Shown in pieces: positions 18,160 through 41,000 of a stretch of 54,152 nucleotides of DNA. Position 1 is the stretch's first letter; every line of letters starts with the position of its first letter. Source of the DNA: Prorocentrum cordatum (Eukaryota); assembly GCA_963575745.1 (NCBI GenBank), contig CAUYUJ010000262.1, positions 62,001 through 116,152 on the forward strand. Reading direction: 5' to 3'. The notes beneath the pieces were generated by a model. It made no database searches, was not told the DNA's origin, and saw only the letters and a list, made by a program, of their open reading frames with translations. The translations under genes were made by a program, and so were the position numbers.

Positions 18160-20690
18160 CCTCTTCGGAGTCTCTCGGGCCACTCCTTGAGCCTCCTGGG
18201 AGCTTCCTGGGGGCCTCTGAGAGGCTTCGTGGGGGGGCCTCTGGAGGCTCCATGGGAGGCTCTTTGGCCACCTGGCCGGCGGACACCGCCTCTCTGGGCG
18301 CCAAGGTGGGCCCTATTTGGGGCGCTTCAGGACCGTCGTGGAGGCCGTCTTGGGCGTCTCAGAGGTATCCCGGGCGTCCTTCTCCTCCTCCATCTCGTTT
18401 CTCTTCCTCCTCCTCCTCCTCCTCCTCCTCCTCCTCCTCTTCCTCCTCCTCCTTCTCCTCCTCCTTCTCCTCCTCCCCCCTCCCCTTCTCTACATTGGGC
18501 TCCTCCTCCTGCTCCTCCTCCTCCTCCTCCTCCTCCTCCTCCTACTCCTCCTCCTCCTCCTCCTCCTCCTCCTCCTCCTCCTCCTCCTCGTCCTCCTCCA
18601 ACTTGAGGCCCTCTTGCGGCCACCTTGAGGGCCACCTGAGCCGTCAGCGCGGGCCATCTCTGAGGCCTCCCGGGCGTTTTCGGGGCCCTCTTGGTGGCCT
18701 TTGGGGCCATCTTGGGCCGCCGGAGAGCCGAAAATGTGCAAGCGTCAAAGTATGTGAAAAACCTGAGTTGAATCAATGATTTCGACCTGTCTGGGCCTTG
18801 CTGGAGGTCTTCTTGGAGGCCTCTTAGGCCGTCTCAGAGGCCTCTTGGGCGATCTTGAGGCCATCTTGGCCTATCTTGGGTGCATGTCGGTCCATCTTGG
18901 AGACATATCAGGGCCATATTGTGCTCTGCTGGGGCCATCGCAGCCGTCTTGGAGGCCATCTTGGCCGTCTTGGGGGCCCTCTTGGGGCCGTCTGGAGCAG
19001 AAATGCCGACGACCTAGGAAGTTTACGGATATTCGTGGAGACGATTTTTCTGTGTTTGTCGTTATCTCAACGTCCTTCTGGGTGGCCGGCAGGTTGGGCC
19101 GAAGGCCCTCAGGGCCGCAAGTTATTGAATATCCAGCACGCCGCGCACCCCTGTTGCAAGCCACTGGGGGCGGCGGATCTAAGACGCCTACGGCGAATCA
19201 CCGCCGCCCCCTGCCTTTGTGGAAGCGCCTATGTGGCCGAACGTTGAGGCCAGACCTGCCAAGCCATCGGACCATGTGTTCCCCGAATCGGTTTGGAAAG
19301 CCTTCGGGGAACACGTGGGCATCTTGAAGGTCATCTTGGCCGTCTTGGAGGCCTCCTGGGCGATCTTTCGGCGATCTTTGGTGGCTCTTGGGCCGTCTCG
19401 GGCCGTCGGAAGGCCGAAAAGAAGGAAATGTCAAAATCCGTCACAAACCTCAGGAAAATCTATGTTTTCGGCCTCGTCTGGCCTTCCTGGAGGCCCTCTT
19501 CGAGGCCTCTTGGGCCCTTTTGAGCCAGCTTCGAGCCAACTTCGGCCATCTTGGTGGGTTCCTGGCACGTCTGACGCCGTCGGGAGCCGTCTTGGGGGCC
19601 TTTCTGGGCCCACAGGGGACCCTCTTGGGCCTCTTCGGGCCCTCCTGGAGGAGCTCTTAGAGGCCTCTTGGGCCGTCTTGGGGGCCTCTTGGGCCGTCTT
19701 CGGCCATCTTGACGCCATCTTAGGCCGTCTTGGGTGCATCTTCGGCGCCTTGGCGGCATCTTGGGGCCATCTGAACCGTCTTGGAGGCCATCTTGGAGAC
19801 CATCTTCGGCGTTTTGGAGGCCTCTTGGGCCGTCTTGGGACCGTCTTGGGCGCCTCTTGGGCCGTCACGGGGCCATCTTGGAGGCCTCTTGGGACGATCT
19901 TGGGGACTTTTCGGGCCACCTGGGGCCGTCGGAAGGCCGAAAAGGCGTAAATACCAAAATCTGTGAAAAACCTAAGGGGAATCAATGATTTTGGCCTCGG
20001 CGAGCCTTCCTGGAGGAGCTCTTGGAGGCCTTTTCGGCCGTCTTCGGGGCCTCTGGGGGGACTCTTGGGCAGTCGTGGGCCATCTTGACACCATCTGCGG
20101 CCGTCTTGGGTGCATCTTGGGCCGTCTTGGCGGCATCTTGGGCACATCTGAGCCGTCTTGGAGGCCATCTTGGCCGTCTGGGAGGTCATCTCGAGCCATC
20201 TTGGAGGATTTTTTGCGGTCGTTGAGCTCGTTTCCGGGCCTTCCGCGGCCCCGGCGGGACGCGCCGGAGCCCATTCGGAGAGTGCTTTGGGAAAAAGAAC
20301 CAAAACCAAAACCGATAGGGTTCGGCACGCCGGGCACCCCTTTGCTGAAGCAAAAGGGGGCGGCGGATCTAGTGGCCTTAGGCTCAACCTGCCACCGTGC
20401 TTGGGTTGTGGGTTACGGACATATTGCATGCATGCCTCTTGTGGTCTCTTGGAGGGCTCTTGTGGCCCTCTGGGTGAGCGTTCTCGGAGGCCTCTTGGGG
20501 GCCTCTTTGGGGCTTTGGGGGGATCTTTTGGCGACCTCTTGGCGGCACTGGGTTCCCCCTCTTGGGCCGTCTTGGACGGCATTCCAACAGAAAAGCCGAT
20601 TATGTTACAGTCATGCACGACATGTTGTTTACTAAGTTGGCCCTTTTGGGCCGGCCGCAGGACCTCCAAGACGGCCCACGATGCGCCAAA
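18160..20690. repeat. Dispersed low-complexity GGCCGTCTTGG/GGCCTCTTGG repeat family
   Basis: Same family in the opposite orientation (CCAAGAGGCC/CCAAGACGGCC) at ~1-3320 and in the same orientation at 50170-50400. Confidence 0.85.
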
Positions 20691-25273: not shown

Positions 25274-25482
25274 GCTTCTCTCAGCGCAGCGGCCGACAGT
25301 CCAGGCAATGCTGCCCCCCCTTCGGCAAGCTTGATTGGGGGGGCGGTTAGCCGACCCGAGCAAGCTTGGCGAAGGGGGCAGGAGGTGCAACATCTTCCCA
25401 CCCCCGGCCGCATGGCCGGCAACCTCCCAAACTAAAGCCTTTTAGGGTTTAGGGCCGTTGGCCCCTAAATTCCCAAATGCGT

Positions 25483-25623
25483 TCCAAGCGCTCCCAGGCG
25501 CTCCCTGGCGCTCCCAGGCGCTCCCAAGCGCTCCCAGGCGCTCTCAGTCAAGCGCTCCCATGCACTCCCCGGCGCTGCCAGGCGCTCCCGGCGCGTTCCG
25601 AAGCGCTCCCTGGCCATCCCAAG

Positions 25624-25655
<32 letters not shown>

Positions 25656-25820
25656 TCCCCCGGCGCTCCCGGCGCGTTCCCAAGCGCTCCCGGGCGCTCC
25701 CAGACGCATCCAAGCGCTCCTTGGCGCTCCCAAGCGCTCCCAGGCGCTCCCGGCACGCTCCCAGGCGCTCCCAAGCGCTTTCAGGCGTTCTCAGGCGCTC
25801 CCAGGCGCTCCCAGGCGCCC

Positions 25821-25885
<65 letters not shown>

Positions 25886-25889
25886 CCAA

Positions 25890-25925
<36 letters not shown>

Positions 25926-25970
25926 CCAAGCGTTCCCAGGCGCTCCCAGGCGCCCCCAGGCGCCCCCGGG
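25483..25970 (+). repeat. 10-bp minisatellite (CCAGGCGCTC)n
   Basis: Direct reading; reverse-complement arrays occur at ~37325-37430 and 37595-37730. Confidence 0.95.
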
Positions 25971-27139
25971 CGCTTCGAAGAAAAGGTCTTTGGGTTTAGG
26001 GTGTTATATTCGTTGAGGATCAGGGGAGGTTTATCATTGAAGCGCGAATCCCCAAAAGAGGGGGAGGGCAGCAGCAAAAGCTGCCAAGGCGAACCACTCG
26101 GGCTACATGCTCAAGCATCTCAGAGATGCCCTGTCTCTCGTAGACGGCGACGGTGATGCGCGGTGGGGTGGGCAGAAGCACAACGAGGTGCTTGGGAATT
26201 TAGGGTTTAGGGCCTGCATTGGCGCAAGCGCGCGCTGGCTGCGACCCCCCCCCCATCAAGGTTGTTGGGGGGGATCGCTGCCCAAGCCGCGCGCGCCACG
26301 GTTAGTCGCACTCCCGCCCCAGACCGCCCAGAGTGAAGCCTTTTAGGGTTTAGGGTTTCTCCCCCCAACCCCCCTATCACGGGGGGCTGTCGAAGTGTTG
26401 CGCGCAGGCGATCGCCGACGCGGCCGTGGCACTGCGCATCCACGTGAGCACGCGCGCAGGGCGCGTGGCGTAGGCGGCGCTTCGGCTCGTTGTCCCGTCG
26501 AAGAGGCAGCCGTTGGCGATGGCGGCGATTAGCTTCGCCGTTGGGCTGCCGCTGGCGCAGCATGCTTATGTGTTGTCGCTTTTGCTGTCGGCACTGGGTT
26601 GTGACACTGGGCTGCGAATGCTGGGAAGCGCGCGCGCGGCCGCGGCCGTGGCAATGCGCGCCCATGCGAACGCGCGCGCAGTGTGCATGGCGCTGGCGCG
26701 CCAGCTCGCCTTGTCGATGAGCAGCCGTTTGCGTCTTCTGCGTGGAGCTTTGCCGTTGGGCTGCCGCTGGCGCAGCAGATCCACAGGGGCCCAGCTTTTG
26801 CCGTCGGCATTGGAAAGCAGCACTGCAAGGGCGCTGGCGTGACAACACTATGGGTTCCCCTGCGCCTCAGGCGAGCGGCTGCGCCGTCGGGCTCGCTGAC
26901 GGCGACGCGCACGGCAGTTGCATTCGCCCGCGGCTTTGGGTTTCGCCTGCGGGGTCGCTCCCGCTGAAGGGATTGCAATCATCGACGCAGACGCTTTCGG
27001 CGCGAGCTTCGGAAGGCGGCAGGGGAAGCGCGAGGGGGTGGGTCTGGCACCCTCCGCTACGATGCGCGCGCATGGCTGCGGCAGCACCTCCACGGCAGAC
27101 CCCATGAAATGTTTGGGGGGATTTTTGTGGAAGCCAGGG

Positions 27140-30100
27140 TCGGCCTCGCCCTTGCGCCCGCTGCGGCCGCGGCCCACGCCCGGCGTGGCGCCTGGCGCCC
27201 TCGGGGCGCTATCTCCGAGCTATCTTTGAAGGACGCCGCAGACGGCGCACTCGGCCTCGCCCCCGCGCCCGCTGCGGCCGCGGCCCACGCTCGGCGTGGC
27301 GCCTGGCGCTCTCTGGGCGCTATCTCCGAGCTATCTTTGAAGGGCGCCACAGACGACGCCTTCGGCCTCGCCCCCGCGCTCGCTGCGGCCGCGGCTCACG
27401 CCTGGCTTGGCGCCTGGCGCACTCTGGGCGCTATCTCCGAGCTATCTTTGAAGGACGCCACAGACGGCGCTTTCGGCCTCGCCCCCGCGCCCGCTGCGGC
27501 CGCGGCCCGCGCCTGGCGTGGCGCCTGGCGCACTCTGGGCGCTATCTCCGAGCTATCTTTGAAGGACGCCGCAGACGGCGCACTCGGCCTCGCTCCCGCG
27601 CCCGCTGCGGCCGCGGCCCACGCCTGGCGTGGCGCCTGGCGCACTCTGGGTATTATCTCCGAGCTATCTTTGAAGGGCGCCACAGACGGCGCCTTCGGCC
27701 TCGCCCCCGCGCCCGCTGCGACCGCGGCCCACGCCCGGCGTGGCGCCTGGCGCCCTCTGGGCGCTATCTCCGAGCTATCTTTGAAGGACGCCACAGACGG
27801 CGCCTTCGGCCTCGGTCCCGCGCCCGCTGCGGCCGCGGCCCACGCCTGGCGTGGCGCCTGGCGCACTCTGGGTGCTATCTCCGAGCTATCTTTGAAGGGC
27901 GCCACAGACGGCGCCGTCGCTGTAGTCTTTGCGCTCGCTGCGGCCGCGGCCCACGCCAGGCGTGCCTCGGGCGCTCGTGAGCGCTATCTCCGAGCTATCT
28001 TTGAAGGACGCCACAGTCGGCGCCTTCGCTGTAGCCTTTGCGCCCGCTGCGGCCGCCGCCCACGCCAGGCGTGCCTCGGGCGCTCGTGAGCGCTATCTCC
28101 GAGCTATCTTTGAAGGACGCCACAGTCGGCGCCTTCGCTGTAGCCTTTGCGCCCGCTGCGGCCGCGGCCCACGCCAGGCGTGCCTCGGGCGCTCGTGAGC
28201 GCTATCTCCGAGCTATCTTTGAAGGACGCCACAGTCGGCGCCTTCGCTGTAGCCTTTGCGCCCGCTGCGGCCGCCGCCCACGCCAGGCGTGCCTCGGGCG
28301 CTCGTGAGCGCTATCTCCGAGCTATCTTTGAAGGACGCCACAGTCGGCGCCTTCGCTGTAGCCTTTGCGCCCGCTGCGGCCGCCGCCCACGCCAGGCGTG
28401 CCTCGGGCGCTCGTGAGCGCTATCTCCGAGCTATCTTTGAAGGACGCCACAGTCGGCGCCTTCGCTGTAGCCTTTGCGGCCCGCTGCGGCCGCCGCCCAC
28501 GCCAGGCGTGCCTCGGGCGCTCGTGAGCGCTATCTCCGAGCTATCTTTGAAGGACGCCACAGTCGGCGCCTTCGCTGTAGCCTTTGCGCCCGCTGCGGCC
28601 GCCGCCCACGCCAGGCGTGCCTCGGGCGCTCGTGAGCGCTATCTCCGAGCTATCTTTGAAGGACGCCACAGTCGGCGCCTTCGCTGTAGCCTTTGCGCCC
28701 GCTGCGGCCGCCGCCCACGCCAGGCGTGCCTCGGGCGCTCGTGAGCGCTATCTCCGAGCTATCTTTGAAGGACGCCACAGTCGGCGCCTTCGCTGTAGCC
28801 TTTGCGCCCGCTGCGGCCGCCGCCCACGCCAGGCGTGCCTCGGGCGCTCGTGAGCGCTATCTCCGAGCTATCTTTGAAGGACGCCACAGTCGGCGCCTTC
28901 GCTGTAGCCTTTGCGCCCGCTGCGGCCGCCGCCCACGCCAGGCGTGCCTCGGGCGCTCGTGAGCGCTATCTCCGAGCTATCTTTGAAGGACGCCACAGTC
29001 GGCGCCTTCGCTGTAGCCTTTGCGCCCGCTGCGGCCGCCGCCCACGCCAGGCGTGCCTCGGGCGCTCGTGAGCGCTATCTCCGAGCTATTTTTGAAGGAC
29101 GCCACAGTCGGCGCCTTCGCTGTAGCCTTTGCGCCCGCTGCGGCCGCCGCCCACGCCAGGCGTGCCTCGGGCGCTCGTGAGCGCTATCTCCGAGCTATGT
29201 TTGAAGGGCGCCACGGTCGGCGCCTTCGCTGTAGCCTTTGCGGCCGCTGCGGCCGCCGCCCACGCCAGGCGTGCCTCGGGCGCTCGTGAGCGCTATCTCC
29301 GAGCTATCTTTGAAGGACGCCACAGTCGGCGCCTTCGCTGTAGCCTTTGCGCCCGCTGCGGCCGCCGCCCACGCCAGGCGTGCCTCGGGCGCTCGTGAGC
29401 GCTATCTCCGAGCTATCTTTGAAGGACGCCACAGTCGGCGCCTTCGCTGTAGCCTTTGCGCCCGCTGCGGCCGCCGCCCACGCCAGGCGTGCCTCGGGCG
29501 CTCGTGAGCGCTATCTCCGAGCTATCTTTGAAGGACGCCACAGTCGGCGCCTTCGCTGTAGCCTTTGCGCCCGCTGCGGCCGCGGCCCACGCCAGGCGTG
29601 CCTCGGGCGCTCGTGAGCGCTATCTCCGAGCTATCTTTGAAGGACGCCACAGTCGGCGCCTTCGCTGTAGCCTTTGCGCTCGCTGCGGCCGCGGCCCACG
29701 CCAGGCGTGCCCGGGCGCTCGTCAGCGCTATCTCCGAGCTATCTTTGAAGGACGCCACAGACGGCGCCTTCGGCCTCGCCCCCGCGCTCGCTGCGGCCGC
29801 GGCCCACGCCTGGCGTGGCGCCTGGCGCACTCTGGGCGCTATCTCCGAGCTATCTTTGAAGGGCGCCACAGACGGCGCCTTCGGCCTCGCCCCCGCGCCC
29901 GCTGCGGCCGCGGCCCACGCCTGGCGCGGCGCCTGGCGCACTCTGGGCGCTATCTCCGAGCTATCTTTGAAGGACGCCACACACGGCGCCGTCGGCCTCG
30001 CCCCCGCGCCCGCTGCGGCCGCGGCCCACGCCTGGCGCGGCGCCTGGCGCACTCTGGGCGCTATCTCCGAGCTATCTTTGAAGGGCGCCACAGACGGCGC

Positions 30101-30250
30101 CTTCGGCCTCGCCCCCGCGCAAGCTGCGGCCGCGGCCTACGCCCGGCGCTGCGCCTAGCGCTTTCCTGGCGCTATCTCCGAGCTATTTTTGAAGGGCGCC
30201 ACAGACGGCGCCTTCGGCCTTGCCCCCGCGCCCGCTGCGGCCGCGGCAAA
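27140..30250. repeat. Tandem repeat of 109-111-bp units, about 28 copies
   Basis: Core GCTATCTCCGAGCTATCTTTGAAGG(A/G)CGCC recurs every 111 bp (27208-27874 and 29727-30170) or ~109 bp (27983-29727). Confidence 0.95.
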
Positions 30251-30317
30251 CTCCAAAGTCATTGGCGTTGTTTCGGTCGTCGCAGGATTCTGCCCTAGGC
30301 GATGTAGTGTCAGCAAG

Positions 30318-31000
30318 AGAAGTTGCACACAGCTGTAGCCATTCACAGACTCGGGAGAGGAGAGGCGACGCACGGGCAGTGTTGGAGAGTGCGTTGCATG
30401 GCATGACACGCGCACGTGTTCGCAGGTTGGGAGGGGGAGAGCGAGGGGGAGGGTCTGGCTCCCCCTCGCACACTGTTGACATGAACATGCGTTGCCAGGG
30501 ACGAGTTGCTCGCGCAAAGGTCTAGGAGACATTGTCGAACACATATTTCGCAGAGGACAGTAGACACATATGTATTGGCGATGTCCTGCAGTAGTCATTC
30601 GGAGCAGGGGGTGTTTCAAATGGATGGAGAGATGCATGGGCGGTGCAATTCCCACAGGCAGAGAAATTGCACACAGCCCTGGCCATTCACGGACTCGGAA
30701 GAGGAGAGGCGACGCACAGGCAGTCTTGCAGAGTGCGTTTTATGGCATGACACGCGCACGTGTTCGCAGGTTGGAAGGGGGAGAGCGAGGGGGAGGGTCT
30801 GGCTCCCCCTCGCACACTGTTGAAATGAACATGCGTTGCCAGGAACGAGTTGCGCGCGTACAGGTCTAGGAAACATTTCCGAACACATCTTTCGCAGAGG
30901 ATAGTAGAGACAGATGTATTGGCGATGTGCTGCAGTAGTCATTCGGAGCAGGTGGTGTTTTAAATGGATGGAGAGATGCATGGGCGGTGCAGTTTCCAAC
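30318..31000. repeat. ~344-bp direct duplication upstream of RepHel, each copy carrying a GC-rich hairpin
   Basis: Identical hairpins at 30441-30469 and 30785-30813; shared GGAGAGATGCATGGGCGGTGCA and other blocks. Confidence 0.9.
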
Positions 31001-31379
31001 GGCAGGCGTCGGGCATGCAGGATTATCCCCGTTGTTCGAACGTCTGTGAGCGAATGCAGGAGAGCACGGGTGCAATTTGCGAGCTGTGGGTGCGAGATGC
31101 ATTGGCGATGCGTCCCAGCATGTCGCGGTGGAGGCATGTGGTGCAATCCCGCATGGAAGAACAGCGTCGGAACATTTGTATTGGAGTCGCGGCTCTCACT
31201 TTCCTGAAAGGCGCAGCAGGCAGCGGCCTCTTCCAGATGCACGATGCATTGGCGATGCGCCTCAATGGCCCGCGGTAGATGGTGGAATGCTGGTTGCGCT
31301 CCTGGAGGGGCTGTCGACGCAGCGGCGATGCATCGCGGGATGACGCGTAGAAATGCTGGAGCATGTTCTCTGGCACGCC

Positions 31380-31401
31380 GCCGTTGCCATTTGGGCTCAG
31401 G
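31380..31401 (+). other. Genomic dinoflagellate spliced-leader-like sequence (SL relic or mimic) upstream of RepHel
   Basis: GCCGTTGCCATTTGGGCTCAGG versus DinoSL DCCGTAGCCATTTTGGCTCAAG: 19/22 ungapped, sense strand, ending ~100 nt before the ATG at 31498. Confidence 0.75.
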
Positions 31402-31497
31402 AGAGATCTGCAACGCTCCCCGATTGTCTGGCAGGCGCACCCGCCGCCATCAGTCTGTGCAGTTTCTTGACATTGGCACTTGTCGCGCAATCTCACC

Positions 31498-34400
31498 ATG
31501 GGGCCGCGTCGCTGCGAGGGATTCGTCATGGGGGACGGCGCCGTGATGGAGTGCTGCTTCAGCCCGTGGGACGCCGGCAAGCACGCGCAGGCGAAGTACA
31601 ACGGGCAATGCCAGTGGTGTTCGCCAGTGCGCATGCAGACAATTTGCAAGACGCAGCGGCTTTCCAAGCTGGCGTCTCACAGCCTGGCGAATCTTCAGAA
31701 GCTCGACGCGGGCATCTACGATATCGCCGTGGAGAGGGTGGCCATGTGCGAGGGCGGAGACGAGCTCATCTCCCGTGCCAAGGAGATCGTCGCGAAGAAC
31801 CAGCAGGCCGCGGCGCCAGCGCAGGATCCGGTGGATGACCAGGGCGACGTCGTCATGGAGCCTGTCGAGGAGGTGCCCGGTGGCGCGCCGGACGCAGCGG
31901 AGCTGCCGCCGCCGCCGCCTGCTGCGGAGCGCACAGGGAAGCGCTTGTGCGAAGGGTACGCTCTCGGGCGCGCCATGGGGCGCAAGCTCAAAGACAAAGG
32001 CGACTGCGGCGTGTGCGCTTTCTCCAGGGCGGAGCCCGGCGAGCGCGCTTTTGCCGCGGGCGGTCATTGCGTGTTCTGCACGCCTGCGCGCATGAAGGAG
32101 GCGGCGCAGAATCCCATGAAGAAGAAGAACGTCATGGCCGACCTGAACAAGTTCAAGCAGGCGAGCGCGGCTCTCCATGCGAAAGCGCTCGGGAGGCTCC
32201 GCAGGCACCTGACGTTGCATGATTACAAGGTTCTTGTAACTCCACACAATTGCTGCCGCGGGGCGGGAGAGCACGCGTGCCCGTTCAGCACAGCGAATCC
32301 GGGTCAGCCAGCGCGCGTGCTGAAGGAGGACAAGCACCTGTGCAGCTGGTGCGACCCGCAGAGGCTGCGCGGCATGCAGGGCGTCAAGCGCAGCGGCTTG
32401 CTGAAGCAATTGGAAGCCTTTCGCGAGAAGGACGAGGCTGTGTTCGACAAGGCCGAGGCAATCCTAAAGAGCGTCTACGGCGACGACTACGTGGCGCAGA
32501 TGCGGAAGAAGACGGTTCGCCAGAATCAGCAGGCGGCCCGCGCTCAGAGAGCCCGGAGGCGCAGCGGGAAGACCGATTGGCCAGAGAAGCTCAAGAGGCG
32601 CGCTCTGCAGATGCAGAATCCAGCGGACGACAAGGAGGCGCGGAAGAAGTTCCGGAGACTCACCCTGGAGAACCACAAGAAGGTGGAGAACTCGTTCTTC
32701 AAGGACAAGGCCGAGAGGAGAGTCCGCGGGCGCGCCGACGAGATCCCCAAGGGAGAGGAGTTGGACCCGCCGCTGGAGGCAGCGAGCTTCAGCGATCTCT
32801 CCAAGGGGTTGGAGTCCTGGGCTCTGCGCGGCTCCTGGGGGATGTGCAAGGAGTGCAGCGTCCTGCAGCCGCGCCCGATGCACGAGGTCGACATGTTCCG
32901 GGACGCCAGCGAGGAGATCTCGAAGAGCGCTTGCCGTCGGTGCAACGCCTCCCGCAAGATGTTCGTGCCGCTGCCGGAGCAGGTGCCGAAGAAGCTGCGC
33001 GGGCTCTCCGAGGAGGCCGTCGAGGCGCTGAGGCCCATTGAGATTGATGTCGGCCCCGAGGCGCGGTCCACCGACAAGTTCGGGCGGCCGAACGGGTATC
33101 AGAAGAAGGTGAAGATGATCACCTTTTATTTCTCTCGCTGGCATGTGGGTGACAAGATCAAGGAGATCGAGGACAAGGAGATGCGCCACAGGGCGAAGAA
33201 GGCGCTGGAGTACCTGCTGTCATGCGAGGAGTCCTCGTACAAGTACTTCTACGACATGCATGAGAAGTTCCTCCGCAAGAACGGCGAAGATGCCGCTGAT
33301 AGGAAGCGCAAGCGGCCGTGCCACTTCTTGCAGGAGGTCGGGCTGGAGTGCGCGCTGTGGCCACACCTGTACTGGTGCACGGAGATGACGGAGACTAAGG
33401 AGCAGTGGTCGGATGCGCGTCGCGAAGACAGACGACAGGCGCTGGAGGCGAAGAAGAAGAAGCCGGAGTACGGCTACCGCAGTGACGACTCCGACGAAGA
33501 CGACGGCAGCGGCGACCAGGAGATGAGCGAGCGCACGAGCGTCAAGCGGTCTTTCATCACGAAATGCTTATCACCACTCCTGGGGTACGGGTCCAATTTC
33601 GAATTGTTGCAGTTCGTGTACGACTTGAATCTGTGGGCCACGCTCGGCGGGAAGAAGAACCTGGGTCTGGACAACGTCCCCATGCGAGTGCTCATGAAGG
33701 GCCATACCTTCTCACCTCTGTACTGGAAGGAGGTTCACAACGGGCTCGTGGACCTTGTCCGCCAGATCGGCTTCCCCAAGCTGTTCTTCACCATTGCGCC
33801 GTGGGAGCCAGCGTTCAGGTACCACGACTGGGTGCGGGATGAGATGGAGAAGACTCTGAGGACCCGCATGTATCTGCCCGTGGGAGAGACGCTGCACATC
33901 ACTCACGTGCTCATGGAGATTGTCCGTGGCCTCCTCGCGGGGAACAACCAGCAGTGCATGGATCAGGAGCGTAAGTCGTGGACGAAGCACGTGTTTTCGG
34001 CGAAAGACTCAGATGGGAAGCAGGTGCGCGTGCAGTCCTTCACGCGCTTGGAGTTCCAAGACGGGAGCCGCAAGGAGGGGACGAAGCGCTACGACGGGTC
34101 CGGGCGGCCGCACTTGCACGTGTTGTTCTTCGCAGACGACGAGGCGATGGCGAACATGGGGCTCGAGCATCACCTGTTTGCCACGAAGCCCGAAGACTTC
34201 CCAGACCACCTCAAGGGCTACGTGGACGGCTCGCAGATGGACAGGCACGGCGGCGGAGAGAGCAAGTGGCCGATCTACCACGGGCCGTCAGGGGTGCACA
34301 ACAGCGATGGCATTCTGGAGCTGAAGCACACGGAGAACGACCACGACGCGGGCATGCGAGCCTTTTGCGCTGACGTCATGGACGGGCAACCATGCCACCA

Positions 34401-36759
34401 GGATTGGCTGAAGAGCGACGGCGAGGCCATGCTCCTGCAGTATGTCTCCAAGTACGTAGCCAAATTCTCCGACAGCAGCTACGACGAGTGGATGAGCGAC
34501 AGCGCCTCCGCGGACAGCGTGGCGCGCCGCGTGTGCTTCGAGTATCACCCGTACGAGCCGGAGATGATTCTGCAGCTGTGCGGCGCCCAGTTCCGGCAGT
34601 ACGACATCTCTACGGCCAGTGGCGGGTTCCGCACCGTCTCGGCGCCCTACGCGGGCATGTCAGCGGTGCCGGAGTGGGTGCAGAAGTACGCCGAGTGCGC
34701 GTGGCGCCACGACGGAATGGCTCTGCTGGAGTGGTTGCGCAAGACAAACGACGACGGGAACATCGCGGGTTGGCTGGTTCGCAAGCACAAGCAGGAGCTC
34801 ATGATGGCGCTCTACCAAAGGTATCGGAAGACCATGGACGACGGGGAGGAGCCGCTGACGCTCGACGCTTACTGGCGCAGCCTCCGCGCCGCGTTCAAGG
34901 ACGAGCCGAACAGCGAGAAGGCGCCGATGACATTCGTGGAGTATCTCGCCGCGAGGTATAGGCGGGAGAAGAGCGACGACGAGGTGGATTTCCCTGAGTT
35001 GGAGCAGTTCGCGCGGGCGCACCGCATGCAGGGCGAGAAAGTCGTCAGCGTCGAGACCGTGTACGAGCTGAATGACCGCTACTACGGCCAGTGGGCTGCC
35101 ATGAACGTGCCGTTCCGTTCGCTGGACGAGTTAGTATTCGAAGACATAGAACAGCGTGTCCCCGGGAAGTACCGCTACCTTGCGTCGGCGCTGCGGCTGT
35201 GCTCGGACCAAAGTCGCGTCGCCGCAGAGCATCGCGACCTGTTCACCAACGACAAGCTTCTCGTGGACTACATGAAGGCGTCCGCGAAGTCGACGAAGTT
35301 CAGCGAGAACGTTCTGAGCATGGTCGTGGGGCAAAGGAAGCTCATCAATATGTATCTGACGGGTGTTCTTGACAAGAGCGACGAGAGCGCTGCGGCGGAG
35401 GCGGAGGCGGCCGCGGATGGGAATCGCAGACGCCCGCGAGACGACGCGGAGGGAGCGGCGGACGTGAGGTTCAACCAGCAGCAGCTCCAGTTCGAGTCCG
35501 CGATCAACGAGAGCGTCGACCGTGCGCTCAGGGCGAACCATTCGGATGATTGGGAGGACGCAGACGCTGCGCGCGAGGAGGCATGGCAGAAGGGGAAACC
35601 CATTATCTGCCTCGGCAAACCAGGCACGGGGAAGACTACCGTGGTGAAGGCTTGCATCCGGCGTGCCCAGGACAATGGCGCCCGAGTGCTCTTCGCGCTC
35701 CCGACGGCACAGCTCGCGAGCCGCATGCGGGCCGCGCTCAACGACATGCACGGCGTGGAGGTGGCCACGTGTCACGCAGCGTTCAAGCTGAACGAACCTG
35801 TCACGGAGTCGTTGCCGCTGATGACCATGTACGACCTGGTCGTCGTGGACGAGGTGTCGCTCCTTGACTGTCCGCAGTTTGAGCGCATGGTGAAGTTGTG
35901 GAGCGTCGCAGAGAAGGTCCCGGCGCTCGTGTTCCTGGGCGACAAGTATCAGCTTCCGGGCGTCGGGGAGACGCGCGCATGGGAGAGCGCCGCCTGGTCA
36001 CGGCCAGCGTGCTATCACGTGAAGCTGCACGATGCGTGGAGATGCAAGGAGGAGCGCTTTCAGGAGATTCTCGACGAGATCCGCACGGCGAAGCCGTCGA
36101 AGGAGACGTTGGCGAAGATCTGTCGGGGGCACAAAGCTTGGAAGATGGGCGATCCGACGCCGACGGATCTGAAGAAGCTCTACGAAGCGCACCCGGAGAC
36201 GACCGTCGTCACGTGTACCCGGAAGGGAGCGAATGCAGTGAACGAAGCTGCAGTGAAGGCTCTGTATGGTCGGAAGTCCCCGCTGGCAGTCCTTCCAGGC
36301 GACGTGGAACTGAACCCAGAGAACTACGAGCATGGGCAGTTCCGCACCGATCGCCGCCCCCTGCCGAGCGCTGTGCCGGTTTACAAGGGCATGCAGATTT
36401 ACCTCACGAAGAACGTTCGCAAAGAGGATGATTTCGTGAATGGTATGTTATGCGTGGTCGAGAACTACCACGTGGCCGAAGACGTCCTGCGCGTGAAGAC
36501 AAAGACGGGGCACCGCCTCGCTATTTTCCGCTGGACTGATCGCGAGAAGAATAATGCTGTATATTTTCCGATTCGTTTAGGATACGCTAGCACGATAGAT
36601 AAGGTCCAGGGCGATGAATTTTCGCATATCACAATATACTTAGATGGATGGCCGAGGCCAGCTGCCGGCTATACTGCGCTCAGCCGCGTGGCCACCTCGG
36701 ATGATTATATGATTGGGGGCCATGTAGAGCGCAGCAGCTTCACTCCAGCGCTTGCATGA
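31498..36759 (+). CDS. Helitron-like RepHel protein (HUH Y2 rolling-circle endonuclease fused to a PIF1-family SF1B helicase), ~1750 aa, intronless
   Basis: Uninterrupted ORF; first ATG 31498, TGA 36757-36759. Rep motifs in order: LFFTIAP (~33781), RLEFQ...GRPHLHVLFF (HUH, ~34045-34131), YVSKYVAK (34441-34464). PIF1 motifs: GKPGTGKT (35614-35637), VVVDEVS, FLGDKYQLPGV, FVNG, YFPIRLGYASTIDKVQG, GYTALSRV. The Rep-then-helicase order matches Helitron RepHel. Confidence 0.93.
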   Translation: MGPRRCEGFVMGDGAVMECCFSPWDAGKHAQAKYNGQCQWCSPVRMQTICKTQRLSKLASHSLANLQKLDAGIYDIAVERVAMCEGGDELISRAKEIVAKNQQAAAPAQDPVDDQGDVVMEPVEEVPGGAPDAAELPPPPPAAERTGKRLCEGYALGRAMGRKLKDKGDCGVCAFSRAEPGERAFAAGGHCVFCTPARMKEAAQNPMKKKNVMADLNKFKQASAALHAKALGRLRRHLTLHDYKVLVTPHNCCRGAGEHACPFSTANPGQPARVLKEDKHLCSWCDPQRLRGMQGVKRSGLLKQLEAFREKDEAVFDKAEAILKSVYGDDYVAQMRKKTVRQNQQAARAQRARRRSGKTDWPEKLKRRALQMQNPADDKEARKKFRRLTLENHKKVENSFFKDKAERRVRGRADEIPKGEELDPPLEAASFSDLSKGLESWALRGSWGMCKECSVLQPRPMHEVDMFRDASEEISKSACRRCNASRKMFVPLPEQVPKKLRGLSEEAVEALRPIEIDVGPEARSTDKFGRPNGYQKKVKMITFYFSRWHVGDKIKEIEDKEMRHRAKKALEYLLSCEESSYKYFYDMHEKFLRKNGEDAADRKRKRPCHFLQEVGLECALWPHLYWCTEMTETKEQWSDARREDRRQALEAKKKKPEYGYRSDDSDEDDGSGDQEMSERTSVKRSFITKCLSPLLGYGSNFELLQFVYDLNLWATLGGKKNLGLDNVPMRVLMKGHTFSPLYWKEVHNGLVDLVRQIGFPKLFFTIAPWEPAFRYHDWVRDEMEKTLRTRMYLPVGETLHITHVLMEIVRGLLAGNNQQCMDQERKSWTKHVFSAKDSDGKQVRVQSFTRLEFQDGSRKEGTKRYDGSGRPHLHVLFFADDEAMANMGLEHHLFATKPEDFPDHLKGYVDGSQMDRHGGGESKWPIYHGPSGVHNSDGILELKHTENDHDAGMRAFCADVMDGQPCHQDWLKSDGEAMLLQYVSKYVAKFSDSSYDEWMSDSASADSVARRVCFEYHPYEPEMILQLCGAQFRQYDISTASGGFRTVSAPYAGMSAVPEWVQKYAECAWRHDGMALLEWLRKTNDDGNIAGWLVRKHKQELMMALYQRYRKTMDDGEEPLTLDAYWRSLRAAFKDEPNSEKAPMTFVEYLAARYRREKSDDEVDFPELEQFARAHRMQGEKVVSVETVYELNDRYYGQWAAMNVPFRSLDELVFEDIEQRVPGKYRYLASALRLCSDQSRVAAEHRDLFTNDKLLVDYMKASAKSTKFSENVLSMVVGQRKLINMYLTGVLDKSDESAAAEAEAAADGNRRRPRDDAEGAADVRFNQQQLQFESAINESVDRALRANHSDDWEDADAAREEAWQKGKPIICLGKPGTGKTTVVKACIRRAQDNGARVLFALPTAQLASRMRAALNDMHGVEVATCHAAFKLNEPVTESLPLMTMYDLVVVDEVSLLDCPQFERMVKLWSVAEKVPALVFLGDKYQLPGVGETRAWESAAWSRPACYHVKLHDAWRCKEERFQEILDEIRTAKPSKETLAKICRGHKAWKMGDPTPTDLKKLYEAHPETTVVTCTRKGANAVNEAAVKALYGRKSPLAVLPGDVELNPENYEHGQFRTDRRPLPSAVPVYKGMQIYLTKNVRKEDDFVNGMLCVVENYHVAEDVLRVKTKTGHRLAIFRWTDREKNNAVYFPIRLGYASTIDKVQGDEFSHITIYLDGWPRPAAGYTALSRVATSDDYMIGGHVERSSFTPALA

Positions 36760-37324
36760 TTTAGCGGCAGCAGCGCTCTGTGATTACATCGTGGCTCGGC
36801 GGGGCGCGGATGCTCGCTCTGGCCCCGAGGCCCGAAGCTCTTTGTGCCAGAATCGGCATGCCGTGCATTGCTTGAGGGCAGCGACTGTTCAGCGGTTCCT
36901 TTCGATGCGTTTAGGAAAACCTTCATACGTTGATGCGTCGGATGTTCAGCGCGAGCGTGGGTATTAGCGCGTGCGCGTGCGCATTCGCATGTATAACGCA
37001 CGCGTGGTGACCTTGTGCGCCACGTGCAAGAGCGCGGCACAGACGTGAACACTGCTTGTGTACGCATGGCACCGGCATGAGCATGGCGCGAGCACGAGCG
37101 CTGGCGGTGGCGGTGAACACTGCGTGTGTGTGTGCGCGACACCAGCCTGAGCATGGCGCGAGAAGGACCGCGGGCGGCGTCGCATGCGTCGCACGCGCGC
37201 TCGGCACTCGGAGGATGCATGAATGCGGGCAGGAAGTGTAGCGCACGCGATGACGAGCCACAGAGATTCGTGTCGGGGGGAGGGGGAGCGCGAGGGGGTG
37301 GGTCTGGCACCCCCTCGCGAGTTC

Positions 37325-37730
37325 GGGAGCGCCTGGGAGCTCCTGGGAGCGCCTGGGAGCGCTTGCGGAAGCGCGTGAGGGCGTGTTGGGAGCGGTTGGA
37401 GAGTCCCTGGGAGCGCCTGGAGCGTTTGGAAGTGCTTGAAGCGCCGCATGCGGTAATTTCATGCGTTTGGAGCACCCAGGGGCCCCGAATGCTGTATTTG
37501 CATAGGGTTTGCAGCCTCAGGGGGTGTAGCGACTCGCGGAGAACCCGCTTGCTAGGGCTGAGGGTTAGGGGTTCCTTTTCTGAGGTCCTCGTAGCGCCTG
37601 AGAGCGTGCCGGGAGCGCCTGGGAGCGCCTGGGAGCACTTCGGAGCGTTCCGCGAGCGCCTTGGGAGCGTACCGCGAGCGCCTGGGGAGCTCTTGGGAGC
37701 TCCCGGGAGCTTCTGGAAGCGTCTGGGCGC
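37325..37730 (-). repeat. Inverted counterpart of the CCAGGCGCTC minisatellite
   Basis: GGGAGCGCCTGGGAGCGC units in two blocks. Confidence 0.85.
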
Positions 37731-38076
37731 CGCGGGCGGCCGAGAGGGCGCCGCAGGCTGTATTTTCATATGGTTTGCTGCCCCACGGACGGCCGAAAGG
37801 GCGCCGCATGCTGTATTTTCATAGGTTTGGAGCCCCAGGGGGTGGCACCGACCGCAGCGAACCCTTTGGCTAGCGCTTGGGGTTAAGGGTTCTTTTCATT
37901 AGTCGAACCAGCGGAGCTGCATACGCGCGGCGTGCGAATTCCTCCTCAGCGGCTCTCGCCGCTTCGTCGGTGCCACGTACGTGGAATGGGCAGGCTCGCT
38001 GAGCGCTCGGCCAGGCGCCACGGGCTTCTGACGATGCACCGCCCGCGGCTTGCAGTCTAGGGTTTAGGGTTTAGGG

Positions 38077-41000
38077 TCTAACAGGGCAAGGCCACGATTA
38101 CAACCTTCAACGGAACCCACCTGCGGTCGCCATCATTCCCCCCCGCATCTCCACCCCCCCATAAAGATCATATCTTCTATCATGTCATAGCGTGGCTGTA
38201 GCATAGCATAGCATGGTATAGCATTGCTTAGCAAAGCATGGCAAAGCATAGGTTCCCCCAAAACACATATAGTGTAGCATGGCATTGCATAGCATAGCAC
38301 AACATAGCAGAGCATGGCAAAGCATAGGTTCCCCACAAAGTGGGAAACCTATAGTGTAGCATAGCAGAGCATAGCAAAGCGAAGCATCGGGTCGGACCCT
38401 GAAAGGCGGGTCGGGTCGGGCGGGCGGGACATTAAAGTATGGTGGGTGTACACTTGACACGCGTGAACCCTAACAAGCGGGTCGGGTCGGGTCGGGCGCA
38501 CTCTAGGGTTCGCCCGACCTCAACGTGCTTTGCTATGCAACGCCTCTCGCATGCTATGCCAGCATAACATTTATTAGCACAAAGGCGAGTTCCACAACAT
38601 CTGGATAACCGCAGCCTCTAGCGTGGCTGTCGCATAACACCAGTGCTGAAAAACATTGAAATGTCCAAAGGAGTTGGCCATGATCGCGCGGCCGACGCGC
38701 GCTTGTGCACTTTGTCGTTTTTTTTGCAATCGAATAGTACCATGCACACATCTTGCAAGAGCAGGATGTTAAGGTTATAGTATTTTTTACAACACAAAAC
38801 TCCGGTACACTTCCCGGCCCGCGACCCGGGTTGGACACGAAACGTATGAAAAAAACATAGGATTTTGATAAATTCGATGCGCATGATCAGGATATAGTGT
38901 TTCTTGACAGGGATCAGGACCGCCCGTTTATAGACCCGGTCACGATCCATTATAAAAAACATCGTTTTCAGAGCGCATGATCAGGAAATGGTTTTTTTTG
39001 CATAGGACGGAGGCCGGTTTACATAGCGACCGGTTTGGAAGGATTTAGGGTTTATTAATTATAAGGATTAGAGATTTAGGGTTTAGGGTTTAGGGTTTAG
39101 GGTTTAGGGTCTAACAGGGCAAGGCCAGGAATACCTACCTGCACAGGCACTCACCTGCGGTGGCTATCAATCCCCCCCGCATCTCCACCCCCACATAAAG
39201 ATCATCTCTCCTCTCATGTTATACCGTGGTTGTAGCATAGCATAGCATGCCATAGCAAGCCTGGGAGCAAGCGCTTAGCAAAGAGGCGGCGGCCGCGCGC
39301 GCGCGGGAGACCCAGCGGGCGGGTCGGGTCGGGTCGGGCGGGCGGACCCTAACGGGCGGGTCGGGTCAGGTCGGCGGACCCTAACGGGCGGGTCGGGTCG
39401 GGAGGGCGGGACATTCAAGTATGGTGCGTGTACACTTGACACGCGTGAACCCTAACAAGCGGGTCGGGTCGGGCGGGCGGACCCTAACGGGCGGGCGGAC
39501 CCTCTCGTATGCTATGCCAGCATAACATAGATTAGCACAAAGGCGAGTTCCACAACATTGGGATAACCGCAGCCACGTAGCGTGGCTGTCGCATAACACC
39601 AGTGCTGAAAAAAACATTGAAATGTCCAAAGGAGTTGGCCATGATCGCGCGGCCGCCGCGCGCGTGTGCACTTTGTCCTTTTTTTTGCAATGGAATATAA
39701 GCATGGACACATCTTGCAAGAGCAGGATGTTAAGGTTATAGTTTTTTGGCATTATAAAACTCCGGTACGCATCCCGGCCCGCGACCCGGCCCGCGACCCG
39801 GGTTGGGCACGAAACATATGAAAAAAACATAGGATTCTGATAAATTCGATGCGCATGATCAGGATACAGTGTTTTTTGACAGGGATCAGCCCGGCCCGTT
39901 TATAGACCCGGTCACGATCCATTGTAAAAAACATCGTTTTCAGAGCGCATGATCAGGAAATGATATTTTTTTGCAGAGGATGGAGGGGGGGATGCATAGT
40001 GGCCGGTTTTGAAGGATTTAGGGTTTAATAATAATAGAGATTAGAGATTTAGGGTTTAGGGTTTAGAGTTTAGGGTCTAACAGGGCAAGGCCAAGAATAC
40101 CTACCTGCATAGGCACCCACCTGCGGTGGCTATCAATCCCCCCCGCATCCCCACCCCCACATAGAGATCATCTCTCCTCTCATGTTATACAGTGGCTGTA
40201 GCATAGCATAGCATAGCAGAGCAAGCCTGGGAGCAAGCGCTTAGCAAAGAGGCGGCGGCCGCGCGCGCGCGCGCGGGAGACCCAAACGGGCGGGTCGGGT
40301 CGGGTCGGGCGGGCGGACCCTGACGGGCGGGTCGGGCCAGGTCGGGCGGACCCTAACGGGCGGGCCGGGTCGGGAGGGCGGGACATTCAAGTATGGTGCG
40401 TGTACACTTGACACGCGTGAACCCTAAACGGGCGGGTCGGGTCGGGCGGGCGGGCCCTGACGGGCGGGTCGGGTCGGGTCGGGCAGACCCTAGCGGGCGG
40501 GTCGGGTCGGGCGGGCGGGACATTAAAGTATGGTGCGTGTGCACTTGACACGCGTGAACCCTGACGGGCGGGTCGGGTCGGGTCGGGCGGACGGACCCTA
40601 ACGGGCGGGTCGGGTCGGGCGGGCGGGACAGTAAAGTGTTGCGCGTGCACTTGACACGCGGCATAGCATAGCATAGCACAGCATGGCAAAGCATAGGTTC
40701 CCCAAGAAAGTGTTGTTTCATAAGGAAAGTGGACCTCGGAAGTGGGTGGTTTACACGGCGGGTCGTAAAGATCCCCATAGCAGGCCCGATCCAGGGGTGC
40801 GCCTGGGAGCACGCATGATCAGGAAATGATTTTGTTGCATAGGATTGTGGGTGGTTTATATAGCGGGTTGTAAAGATCCCCATAGCAGGCTCGATCCAGG
40901 GGTGCGCCTGGGAGCACGCATGATCAGGAAATAGTATGTTTTGCATGGGATTGTGGGTGGTTTACATAGCGGGTCGTAAAGATCCCCAGAGCAGGCTCGA

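What the first reader, a model, noticed from the sequence alone, without database searches (positions are those of the whole stretch)
31380..31500. Near-complete dinoflagellate spliced leader hard-coded just upstream of a DNA transposase gene
Seen: GCCGTTGCCATTTGGGCTCAGG is 19/22 identical without gaps to DinoSL, on the sense strand, ~100 nt before the RepHel ATG, and the ORF is intronless. Known: dinoflagellate mRNAs receive this leader by trans-splicing, and genomic relics mark genes recycled through mRNA. Inference: either a rolling-circle DNA transposase passed through an RNA intermediate, or the element carries its own SL mimic to be translated without trans-splicing.
Basis: partly seen in the sequence, partly recalled or inferred. 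Interest (0 to 1): 0.8.

Follow-up and report, generated by a model that had tools for sequence, protein, structure and literature searches.

The report
Worn spliced-leader relic before Helitron-like gene
A slightly mutated copy of the dinoflagellate mRNA leader sits just before a rolling-circle transposon gene, most likely left when that gene's mRNA was copied back into DNA, a process already known to be common in these algae.

Summary
GCCGTTGCCATTTGGGCTCAGG (31380-31401, +) matches DinoSL at 19 of 22 positions. It is the only match with 3 or fewer mismatches in the window, and 0 of 100 shuffles gave one. The analytic chance is about 6e-4 per window. It ends 96 nt before the ATG of an unbroken 1753-aa ORF.

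The organism is a dinoflagellate. The ORF is 93% identical to a Prorocentrum cordatum protein, and window G+C is 60.4% against 59.7% published for that genome.

The ORF is a Helitron-type Rep/helicase. It has an HxH motif, two tyrosines and a Pif1-like helicase. Its Rep fold is closest to the solved Helitron transposase (Z 11.7).

Best reading (0.7): a relic spliced leader left by recycling of a trans-spliced RepHel mRNA. This is a known dinoflagellate process; relics precede more than 20% of Symbiodiniaceae genes.

A conserved "SL mimic" is not supported. None of 13 related loci carries an SL-like motif, and 7 of them include the ORF start with upstream DNA.

Against a simple fresh retrocopy: there is no poly(A) trace, and contigs from other runs continue at least 199 nt upstream of the relic. 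No RNA data could be obtained.

Verdict: a new member of a known kind, of moderate interest.

The parts
31380..31401 (+). DinoSL-like 22-mer, 19 of 22 matching; mismatches at 31385, 31393 and 31400. It keeps a TTTG at 31390-31393. The AG at leader positions 6-7 is lost; an AG remains at 31399-31400.
   Evidence: DinoSL sequence from the abstract of PMC2606063
31402..31497 (+). 96-nt putative 5' UTR between the relic and the start codon. It holds no ATG.
   Evidence: 0 ATG in these 96 nt against 17 in the 380 nt upstream of the 22-mer; no significant RNA fold (z -0.12)
31498..36759 (+). Intronless ORF of 1753 aa (stop included): Helitron-type Rep/helicase (RepHel). ORF G+C is 62%, GC3 83%.
33505..34887 (+). 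Rep (HUH endonuclease) region, residues 670-1130, that was modelled. The HxH motif lies at 34111-34119 (GRPHLHVLFF) and the two tyrosines at 34441-34455 (YVSKY).
   Evidence: H872, H874, Y982 and Y986 are invariant in 14 homologues. Model pLDDT 75.7. Foldseek's only hit with E<=0.001 is 7lcc_A, the Helitron transposase. VIA-align gives Z 11.7, 326 residues aligned, rmsd 4.9; the next hit has Z 6.1. 25 of 30 nearest named Atlas clusters carry Helitron_like_N.
35590..36102 (+). SF1B (Pif1/RecD-like) helicase core, with Walker A GKPGTGKTT at 35614-35640.
   Evidence: Pfam AAA_30 E 8.8e-19 and AAA_19 E 8e-18; the best solved relatives are PIF1 helicases, E 8e-19
31118..31379 (+). Upstream DNA that stays joined to the 22-mer in contigs of other sequencing runs. 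The duplicated or conserved unit therefore does not begin at the relic.
   Evidence: table 8: X2 record 9 covers 31120-31482 with 9 other letters. X4 record 18 covers 31181-31561 with 9. X6 record 26 covers 31118-31561 with 10.
37278..37318 (+). G/C-rich hairpin motif about 520 nt after the stop. The same motif occurs at 27015-27052, 30429-30469 and 30773-30813. It may be an element-end or a dispersed repeat signal; a link to this element is not shown.
   Evidence: DNA fold -16.9 kcal/mol, z -3.6; compensatory T:A to A:T change between copies

Best explanation
The 22-mer is a relic dinoflagellate spliced leader. An mRNA of this Helitron-type Rep/helicase gene received DinoSL by trans-splicing. 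It was then reverse-transcribed by a resident reverse transcriptase and either inserted into the genome or recombined with a genomic copy ('mRNA recycling'). That left the full 22-nt leader fixed in DNA in front of the 5' UTR and an intron-free coding region. Three substitutions followed. The relic-bearing 5' region was later copied or maintained together with at least 199-262 nt of DNA upstream of it, so the latest spread was at the DNA level. Today the relic is probably not an mRNA leader itself. Its retained TTTG may serve as the core promoter motif proposed for such relics, and new transcripts would receive a fresh leader at a nearby AG.

Shown here: the sequence, its improbability by chance, the dinoflagellate origin, the RepHel nature of the ORF, and the ATG-free 96-nt gap. 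Inferred: the RNA intermediate, any promoter role, and the present splicing pattern.
For: 1. The match is 19 of 22, unique in the window, and reached by 0 of 100 shuffles. The chance is 5.8e-4 per window and 2.7e-6 for this position relative to one ORF.
2. The organism is a dinoflagellate. The best protein hits are Prorocentrum cordatum: 93% identity over 95% of the query, and 96% over 33%. Further paralogues and relatives come from Symbiodinium and Effrenium. Window G+C is 60.4% against 59.7% for the P. cordatum genome (PMC10666404, passage).
3. Position and strand fit published relics. In two Symbiodiniaceae genomes more than 20% of genes carry a relict DinoSL within 500 bp upstream. Relics are best conserved at -50 to -100 and keep TTT(T/G) (PMC5585692, abstract and passages). 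This relic spans -118 to -97 and keeps TTTG.
4. The first base is G, which the degenerate first position D allows. All 22 positions are present, as expected for a full-length cDNA.
5. The 96 nt between relic and ATG contain 0 ATG, while the 380 nt before the relic contain 17. This fits a 5' UTR that begins at the relic.
6. The 5.26-kb CDS has no intron, in a genome where 83.7% of genes have introns and exons average 240 bp (PMC10666404, Table 2 passage).
7. The motif is lineage-specific. None of 13 related loci, at 32-49% identity, carries it. This fits an acquired relic rather than an ancestral element signal.
Against: There is no poly(A) remnant: the longest A run in the 1.34 kb after the stop is 4. 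No convincing target-site duplication was found. The only repeat is an 8-mer, TCTGGCAC, at 31369 and 37303, with about 0.3 expected by chance (my estimate).

Contigs from three other runs, in three studies, bridge the 22-mer and continue 199-262 nt upstream at about 97.5% identity. Similarity between copies or strains therefore does not start at the leader, as it would for a fresh retrocopy.

No intron-bearing parent copy was identified. An intron-free ORF is also normal for an autonomous transposon, so that point is weak. No transcript evidence could be obtained.

Whether the other runs' contigs carry the same three mismatches is not settled. One search lists only 6-7 of the 9-10 differences of those contigs, and none of the listed ones lies in 31380-31401.
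Confidence: 0.7

Rival explanations
1. Borrowed relic. The leader relic comes not from the RepHel's own mRNA but from another source. It could be the 5' end of a host retrogene captured by the Helitron-like element, since Helitrons are known gene-fragment capturers (established knowledge). It could also have been joined by recombination between element subfamilies, or be a decayed fragment of an SL RNA gene.
For: The 5' region 31118-31561 occurs in contigs of runs X4 and X6 that go on with unlike sequence after 31561, which is codon 21 (table 8, records 18 and 26). Paralogue P0005 shares MGDGAVMECCF and diverges right after it. This 5' region therefore appears to be joined to different downstream sequences.
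Against: The first 21 codons belong to the family: P0002 and P0003 start with the same MGPRRC.... The sequence after the 22-mer is AGAGAT, not the GT donor of an SL RNA gene. Rfam gave no RNA family match in 30800-32000, though I do not know whether Rfam holds a DinoSL RNA family. No second gene sharing this 5' region was seen in the window.
Confidence: 0.12
2. Functional hard-coded leader (SL mimic). Transcription starts at 31380, so the mRNA begins with an SL-like sequence and is capped and translated without trans-splicing. This has been proposed for a Symbiodinium RNA virus.
For: There is a precedent of thought. DinoSL at the 5' end of dinoflagellate virus transcripts has been discussed as 'molecular mimicry' (PMC9651163, discussion passages). 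All 22 positions are present here, and no mismatch within 31380-31401 is listed for the contigs of four runs.
Against: None of 13 related loci has an SL-like motif, and 7 of them (L002, L003, L004, L005, L008, L009, L011) contain the ORF start with 217 nt or more upstream. The copy has 3 changes, one of them in the U-rich tract. Nothing marks 31380 as a transcription start. No RNA data are available.
Confidence: 0.05
3. Chance resemblance in a large G+C-rich genome.
For: About 45 sites matching at 19 or more of 22 are expected by chance in 4.15 Gb on both strands. There is no poly(A) or target-site duplication to corroborate retroposition.
Against: The chance is 5.8e-4 per window and 2.7e-6 for a site within 500 nt upstream, on the sense strand, of a given ORF. 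None of 100 shuffles gave a match. Real relics are reported upstream of more than 20% of genes in other dinoflagellates (PMC5585692), so they outnumber chance sites by orders of magnitude. The drop in ATG count begins at the motif.
Confidence: 0.03

Closest known systems
Relic (relict) DinoSL of dinoflagellate retrogenes, also called 'mRNA recycling' (Slamovits & Keeling 2008, as cited in PMC9651163 and PMC7245778; Song et al. 2017, PMC5585692)
   Same: A DinoSL-like sequence is encoded in DNA on the sense strand about 100 nt upstream of the start codon. It keeps TTTG, precedes an intron-free CDS, and lies in a dinoflagellate genome.
   Different: The gene is a Helitron-type transposase, not a host gene. 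I found no paper describing that: 'DinoSL'+'transposase' gave 3 papers and 'Helitron'+'dinoflagellate'+'spliced leader' gave 1, none of them on this. The full 22 nt are present, not the 5'-truncated form seen inside transcripts. No poly(A) trace remains. Similarity to contigs of other runs continues upstream of the relic.
Helitron / Helitron2 RepHel transposases: Helraiser structure 7LCC, and the Helitron2-like element of Symbiodinium microadriaticum (PMC8788227, passage)
   Same: It has an HUH (HxH) motif, two catalytic tyrosines and a C-terminal Pif1-like SF1B helicase. The Rep fold is closest to 7lcc_A (Z 11.7, 326 residues aligned, rmsd 4.9).
   Different: Pfam Helitron_like_N stays below threshold: 14.6 bits against a cut-off of 28.9, with weak hits in 12 of 14 members. 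No sequence-level hit to 7LCC was found. The N-terminal region of about 650 aa is cysteine-rich. The element ends were not identified.
DinoSL associated with viral sequences: upstream of 13 of 59 virus-derived genes in Symbiodiniaceae, and at the 5' end of dinoRNAV transcripts (PMC9651163, passages)
   Same: The host leader sequence is found in front of a gene of a selfish or foreign genetic element. Both the retroposition and the mimicry readings have been discussed for these cases.
   Different: Here the carrier is a DNA transposon gene in the nuclear genome, and the leader is mutated at 3 positions.

Membership tests
Relic-DinoSL retrogene (recycled mRNA copy) | DinoSL or a recognisable remnant on the sense strand within about 500 bp upstream of the ORF (the criterion of Song et al. 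2017) | tested here: met
   19 of 22 at 31380-31401, 96 nt before the ATG. It contains exact runs of 7 nt (GCCATTT, 31386-31392) and 6 nt (GGCTCA, 31394-31399). These are shorter than that paper's 9-mer exact rule, but the overall match is far stronger than a 9-mer.
Relic-DinoSL retrogene (recycled mRNA copy) | Host organism is a dinoflagellate that trans-splices DinoSL | tested here: met
   Best homologues at 93-96% identity are Prorocentrum cordatum proteins. G+C is 60.4% against 59.7% published. DinoSL was found on P. cordatum transcripts (PMC10666404, passage).
Relic-DinoSL retrogene (recycled mRNA copy) | Intron loss relative to a parent gene | tested here: inconclusive
   The ORF is intron-free, but no intron-bearing parent could be looked for because no genome is held.
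Relic-DinoSL retrogene (recycled mRNA copy) | 3' poly(A) remnant and/or target-site duplication (the general retrocopy hallmark; not used as a criterion in the dinoflagellate papers I read) | tested here: not met
   The longest A run in 36760-38100 is 4. The only flank repeat is an 8-mer at chance level.
Relic-DinoSL retrogene (recycled mRNA copy) | Similarity among copies begins at the leader | tested here: not met
   Contigs of X2, X4 and X6 bridge the 22-mer and extend 199-262 nt upstream at about 97.5% identity. These may be alleles, strains or later DNA-level copies, so this argues against a fresh retrocopy, not against an older relic.
Relic-DinoSL retrogene (recycled mRNA copy) | Transcripts carry a new DinoSL spliced at or near the relic | not testable with these tools
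   No RNA run was listed.
Helitron-type RepHel transposase | HUH motif plus two catalytic tyrosines in a Rep domain | tested here: met
   GRPHLHVLFF and YVSKY are present. H872, H874, Y982 and Y986 are invariant in 14 sequences.
Helitron-type RepHel transposase | Rep fold like the solved Helitron transposase | tested here: met
   7lcc_A is the only Foldseek hit with E<=0.001 (E 4.8e-4). VIA-align gives Z 11.7, 326 residues aligned, rmsd 4.9; the next hits are other HUH Rep domains at Z 6.1 or lower. Model pLDDT is 75.7.
Helitron-type RepHel transposase | C-terminal Pif1-like SF1B helicase | tested here: met
   AAA_30 and AAA_19 match. PIF1 helicases are the top solved relatives.
Helitron-type RepHel transposase | Pfam Helitron_like_N above the gathering score | tested here: not met
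   14.6 bits against a cut-off of 28.9. Weak hits occur in 12 of 14 family members, best E 0.0015. 25 of 30 nearest named Atlas clusters carry PF14214.
Helitron-type RepHel transposase | Element termini (5'-TC ... hairpin ... CTRR-3', or Helitron2-type subterminal hairpins and short inverted ends) and insertion without target-site duplication | tested here: inconclusive
   A hairpin motif lies at 37278-37318 and at three sites upstream. No terminal inverted repeat of 11 nt or more links the flanks. Further copies with flanks were not available.
SL RNA gene | 22-nt exon followed directly by a GT donor and an intron | tested here: not met
   AGAGAT follows the 22-mer. No Rfam match was found.

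The most novel reading that the evidence does not exclude
A Helitron-like DNA transposon of Prorocentrum has taken a recycled spliced-leader relic into a 5' region that travels with the element at the DNA level and is shared between diverged RepHel subfamilies. On this reading the transposon owes its promoter (the TTTG core) or its 5' leader to a relic of host trans-splicing. The family would then alternate between, or combine, RNA-mediated recycling and rolling-circle spread.
Probability: 0.15. Interest if true: 0.6.

Novelty: new member of a known kind. Interest (0 to 1): 0.38.

Why it matters
Relic spliced leaders are the accepted tag of RNA-mediated gene duplication in dinoflagellates, and they help explain these organisms' huge, repetitive genomes. 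Finding the tag in front of the transposase gene of a rolling-circle DNA transposon shows that selfish DNA elements are also drawn into mRNA recycling. A retro-recycled, intron-free and possibly self-promoted transposase copy could supply enzyme in trans. That would link retroelement activity to the spread of DNA transposons. It does not change what is known about spliced leaders. It is a useful, testable case for those who study the mobile elements of dinoflagellate genomes.

Tried and rejected
- **Transcript evidence.** The look-up of sequencing runs listed no RNA holder, so transcript starts could not be examined. Reads were laid on four DNA or unknown-kind contig runs.
- **Contig depths.** Depths differ between the 5' region and the ORF body (for example X2: 17.1 against 6-8.5). 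The tool states that depth is no copy number, so I draw no count from it.
- **State of the 22-mer in other runs.** One search lists no difference within 31380-31401, but it accounts for only 6-7 of the 9-10 differences of the bridging contigs. Identity of the 22-mer in those contigs is not established.
- **Whole genome.** None is held. I could therefore make no genome-wide count of SL-like sites, no survey of RepHel copies and no search for a parent gene.
- **Collection scans.** The 25 nt after the 22-mer gave 0 hits in genome contigs. The variant 21-mer gave 0 hits in viral contigs. The protein found no relative in viral contigs.
- **Retrocopy hallmarks.** I searched for poly(A) and a target-site duplication and for terminal inverted repeats (and with 0 inverted pairs). 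Nothing convincing turned up.
- **Tandem older relics.** A search upstream, both gapped and ungapped, found none.
- **RNA family and structure.** Rfam gave no match. The fold of 31380-31500 was no better than shuffles.
- **Short SL remnants in relatives.** TTCTGGATCAAG (10 of 12) lies 3 nt before the ATG of L002. Four such 12-mer hits occur in L002-L005, which by my estimate is about what chance gives, so I rejected it.
- **Sequence-level link to the solved Helitron transposase.** There was no hit, either with the family profile at E<=0.01 or with the Rep region alone at E<=10. The link rests on fold and motifs.
- **Host gene check.** The neighbouring Cation_efflux ORF gave no homologue at E<=1e-10 in the near-length search. 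The species assignment therefore rests on the RepHel family and on G+C.
- **Supplements not read.** Table S23 of PMC10666404 lists DinoSL-bearing transcripts per gene model and could show whether members of this family are trans-spliced.
Full report
**1. The observation**

The window reads GCCGTTGCCATTTGGGCTCAGG at 31380-31401 on the + strand. The dinoflagellate spliced leader is DCCGUAGCCAUUUUGGCUCAAG, with D = U, A or G (abstract of PMC2606063 in the listing; the same sequence appears in PMC5585692 and PMC7245778). The match is 19 of 22 without gaps. The mismatches are at 31385 (T for A), 31393 (G for T) and 31400 (G for A).

It is the only site in the 54,152-base window, on either strand, with 3 or fewer mismatches. 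None of 100 dinucleotide-preserving shuffles produced one. The next best sites have 6 and 7 mismatches.

From the window's base composition, the probability of at least 19 of 22 is 5.4e-9 per site. That corresponds to:
- 5.8e-4 per window;
- about 45 sites in a 4.15-Gb genome on both strands;
- 2.7e-6 for a site within 500 nt upstream, on the sense strand, of one given ORF.

The 22-mer ends 96 nt before the ATG at 31498. That ATG is the first in frame after a stop, and the gene models of two paralogues begin at the homologous methionine, MGPRRC.... The ORF runs unbroken to 36759, giving 1753 aa.

**2. The organism**

No whole genome is held for the window. The ORF's best database relatives are proteins of Prorocentrum cordatum:
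- 93% identity over 95% of the query;
- 96% identity over 33%;
- further paralogues at 73, 60 and 45%.

More distant relatives come from Symbiodinium natans, Symbiodinium sp. and Effrenium voratum. The window's G+C is 60.4%. The published P. cordatum genome is 4.15 Gb with 59.7% G+C, the highest among the dinoflagellates compared there (PMC10666404, passage). DinoSL is found on P. cordatum transcripts (same paper, passage).

A check with a neighbouring host-like ORF (Cation_efflux, 17199-18776) gave no database hit, so the assignment rests on the RepHel family and on composition.

**3. The gene**

Pfam recognises only the helicase core: AAA_30 and AAA_19 at residues 1365-1535. The closest solved relatives by sequence are PIF1 helicases.

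Upstream of the helicase, 14 aligned homologues share an invariant HxH (H872, H874, in GRPHLHVLFF) and two invariant tyrosines (Y982, Y986, in YVSKY). This is the signature of a Y2 HUH nuclease.

- Pfam Helitron_like_N is only sub-threshold: 14.6 bits against a cut-off of 28.9, with weak hits in 12 of 14 members.
- An AlphaFold model of residues 670-1130 (pLDDT 75.7) has the solved Helitron transposase 7lcc_A as its only Foldseek hit with E<=0.001.
- VIA-align gives Z 11.7 over 326 residues at rmsd 4.9. The next rows are other HUH Rep domains at Z 6.1 or lower.
- 25 of 30 nearest named ESM-Atlas clusters carry Helitron_like_N.
- The Rep region has 1038 relatives at E<=0.001 among the 50%-identity representatives, and 235 at E<=1e-30. 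It is a large family.

I file the ORF as a Helitron-type RepHel that is distant from the Pfam seed. A Helitron2-like RepHel in Symbiodinium microadriaticum is on record (PMC8788227, passage).

Element ends were not found. The stretch 31006-37277 is unique within the window. It lies between a 344-nt direct repeat and a 10-nt satellite. A G/C-rich hairpin motif lies at 37278-37318 and three times upstream. No terminal inverted repeats link the flanks.

**4. What the 22-mer is**

Relic DinoSLs are a described and frequent feature of dinoflagellate genomes:
- Trans-spliced mRNAs are reverse-transcribed and re-enter the genome, leaving the leader in DNA (Slamovits & Keeling 2008, as cited in PMC7245778 and PMC9651163; I saw only those citations).
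- In two Symbiodiniaceae genomes more than 20% of genes carry a relict within 500 bp upstream. Relics are best conserved at -50 to -100, and TTT(T/G) is preferentially kept and proposed as a promoter core (PMC5585692, abstract and passages).
- Retrogenes have also been reported from Prorocentrum transcriptomes (PMC12014239, passages).

The 22-mer fits this pattern. It is on the sense strand, spans -118 to -97, keeps TTTG at 31390-31393, and has a permitted G at the degenerate first position.

Two local features add weight. The 96 nt between it and the ATG hold no ATG, whereas the 380 nt before it hold 17. This is as expected if a 5' UTR begins at the leader. The 5.26-kb CDS is intron-free in a genome where 83.7% of genes have introns and exons average 240 bp. 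This second point is weak, because transposase ORFs are often intron-free anyway.

Real relics are orders of magnitude more common than the roughly 45 chance sites per genome. I put chance at about 3%.

**5. Is it a conserved signal of the element (the 'mimic' reading)?**

I fetched 13 loci encoding relatives at 32-49% identity. Seven came from metagenome contigs. Six came from short, high-coverage contigs binned into bacterial MAGs. Seven of the 13 (L002, L003, L004, L005, L008, L009, L011) contain the start of the long ORF with 217 nt or more upstream.

None of the 13 has a site with 6 or fewer mismatches to the 22-mer, or 2 or fewer to its 3' 15-mer, on either strand. The motif is therefore not an ancestral feature of the family.

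Nothing here supports it, and it can only be settled with transcript 5' ends.

**6. What argues against a simple, recent retrocopy**

There is no poly(A) trace: the longest A run in 1.34 kb after the stop is 4. There is no credible target-site duplication.

Contigs from three other public runs, in three studies, bridge the 22-mer:
- X2 covers 31120-31482;
- X4 covers 31181-31561;
- X6 covers 31118-31561.

They carry 9-10 differences each, so DNA about 97.5% identical continues 199-262 nt upstream of the leader. The call lists no difference inside 31380-31401. It accounts for only 6-7 of those 9-10 differences, so I cannot say whether these contigs carry the same three mismatches.

The X4 and X6 contigs go on with unlike sequence after 31561, which is the end of codon 21. 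Paralogue P0005 shares MGDGAVMECCF and diverges exactly there. This hints that the 5' region is exchanged between subfamilies.

Three substitutions in 22 nt also suggest that the relic is older than this latest 2.5% divergence. My reading is therefore an older recycling event, either insertion or recombination of a cDNA with a genomic copy, followed by DNA-level copying of the relic-bearing 5' region. A borrowed relic, through capture or recombination, remains a serious rival (0.12).

**7. Novelty**

The phenomenon itself is known. What I did not find in print is a relic DinoSL in front of a Helitron or other DNA-transposon transposase:
- 'Helitron'+'dinoflagellate'+'spliced leader' gave 1 unrelated paper.
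- 'DinoSL'+'transposase' gave 3 papers, none on this.
- 'Helitron'+'dinoflagellate' gave 34 papers, of which I examined passages of two.

These searches cover only the open-access library.

**8. Verdict**

This is a real relic-type spliced leader in a Prorocentrum genome, in front of a Helitron-type RepHel gene. It is a new member of a known kind, with interest 0.38. The decisive data are transcript 5' ends and a survey of all copies in the genome. Neither could be obtained here.

Noticed in passing
window 27015-27052, 30429-30469, 30773-30813, 37278-37318 (+): A roughly 45-nt G/C-rich hairpin motif, GGGAGGGGGAG(C/A)GCGAGGGGG(T/A)GGGTCTGGC(A/T)CCCCCTCGC, occurs four times in the same orientation. 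A compensatory T:A to A:T change in the stem separates copies. In all four laid runs many contigs match only 37279-37318 and diverge on both sides (loose ends), so it is a dispersed genomic repeat. It sits next to satellite arrays each time.
   Followed up: partly
window 31561/31562: Contigs of runs X4 and X6 share 31118-31561 (upstream DNA, the 22-mer, the 5' UTR and the first 21 codons) and then continue with unlike sequence. Paralogue P0005 diverges from P0001 right after the same residues (MGDGAVMECCF). This may be a recombination or gene-conversion boundary between RepHel subfamilies.
   Followed up: partly
window 15880-16130 (+): A long (CTC)n microsatellite runs straight into TTGGCTCAAGG (15980-15990). 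A second TGGCTCAAGG lies at 16118-16127, and GCTCAAG occurs again at 16165. These are exact copies of the last 9-10 nt of DinoSL, about 1.1 kb upstream of a + strand ORF with a Cation_efflux domain (17199-18776). They may be eroded leader relics of a host gene.
   Followed up: no
window about 27100-30280; 30311-30954; 37324-37720 and 25480-25975 (-): Three tandem arrays surround the gene. One is a 109-111-nt satellite with more than 20 units. One is a 344-nt unit repeated twice at 91% identity. One is a 10-nt GGGAGCGCCT-type satellite present on both sides in opposite orientation; its bin reaches a summed contig depth of 42,597 in run X1.
   Followed up: no
window 38055-38075, 39088-39108; 38100-40000: Interstitial TTTAGGG telomere-type repeats and CCCTAA-containing G-rich repeats lie inside a roughly 1-kb unit that is duplicated in tandem at 86-100% identity (families D7-D19).
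   Followed up: no
L008-L013 (genome contigs): Relatives of this eukaryotic RepHel sit on short (2-7 kb), high-coverage contigs of MAGs labelled Alphaproteobacteria and actinobacterium. The Alphaproteobacteria contigs have 64-67% G+C. They are most likely eukaryotic repeat contigs mis-binned into bacterial MAGs.
   Followed up: no
window 12000-16000: A stretch with 71-77% G+C has long open frames on both strands and no Pfam match.
   Followed up: no
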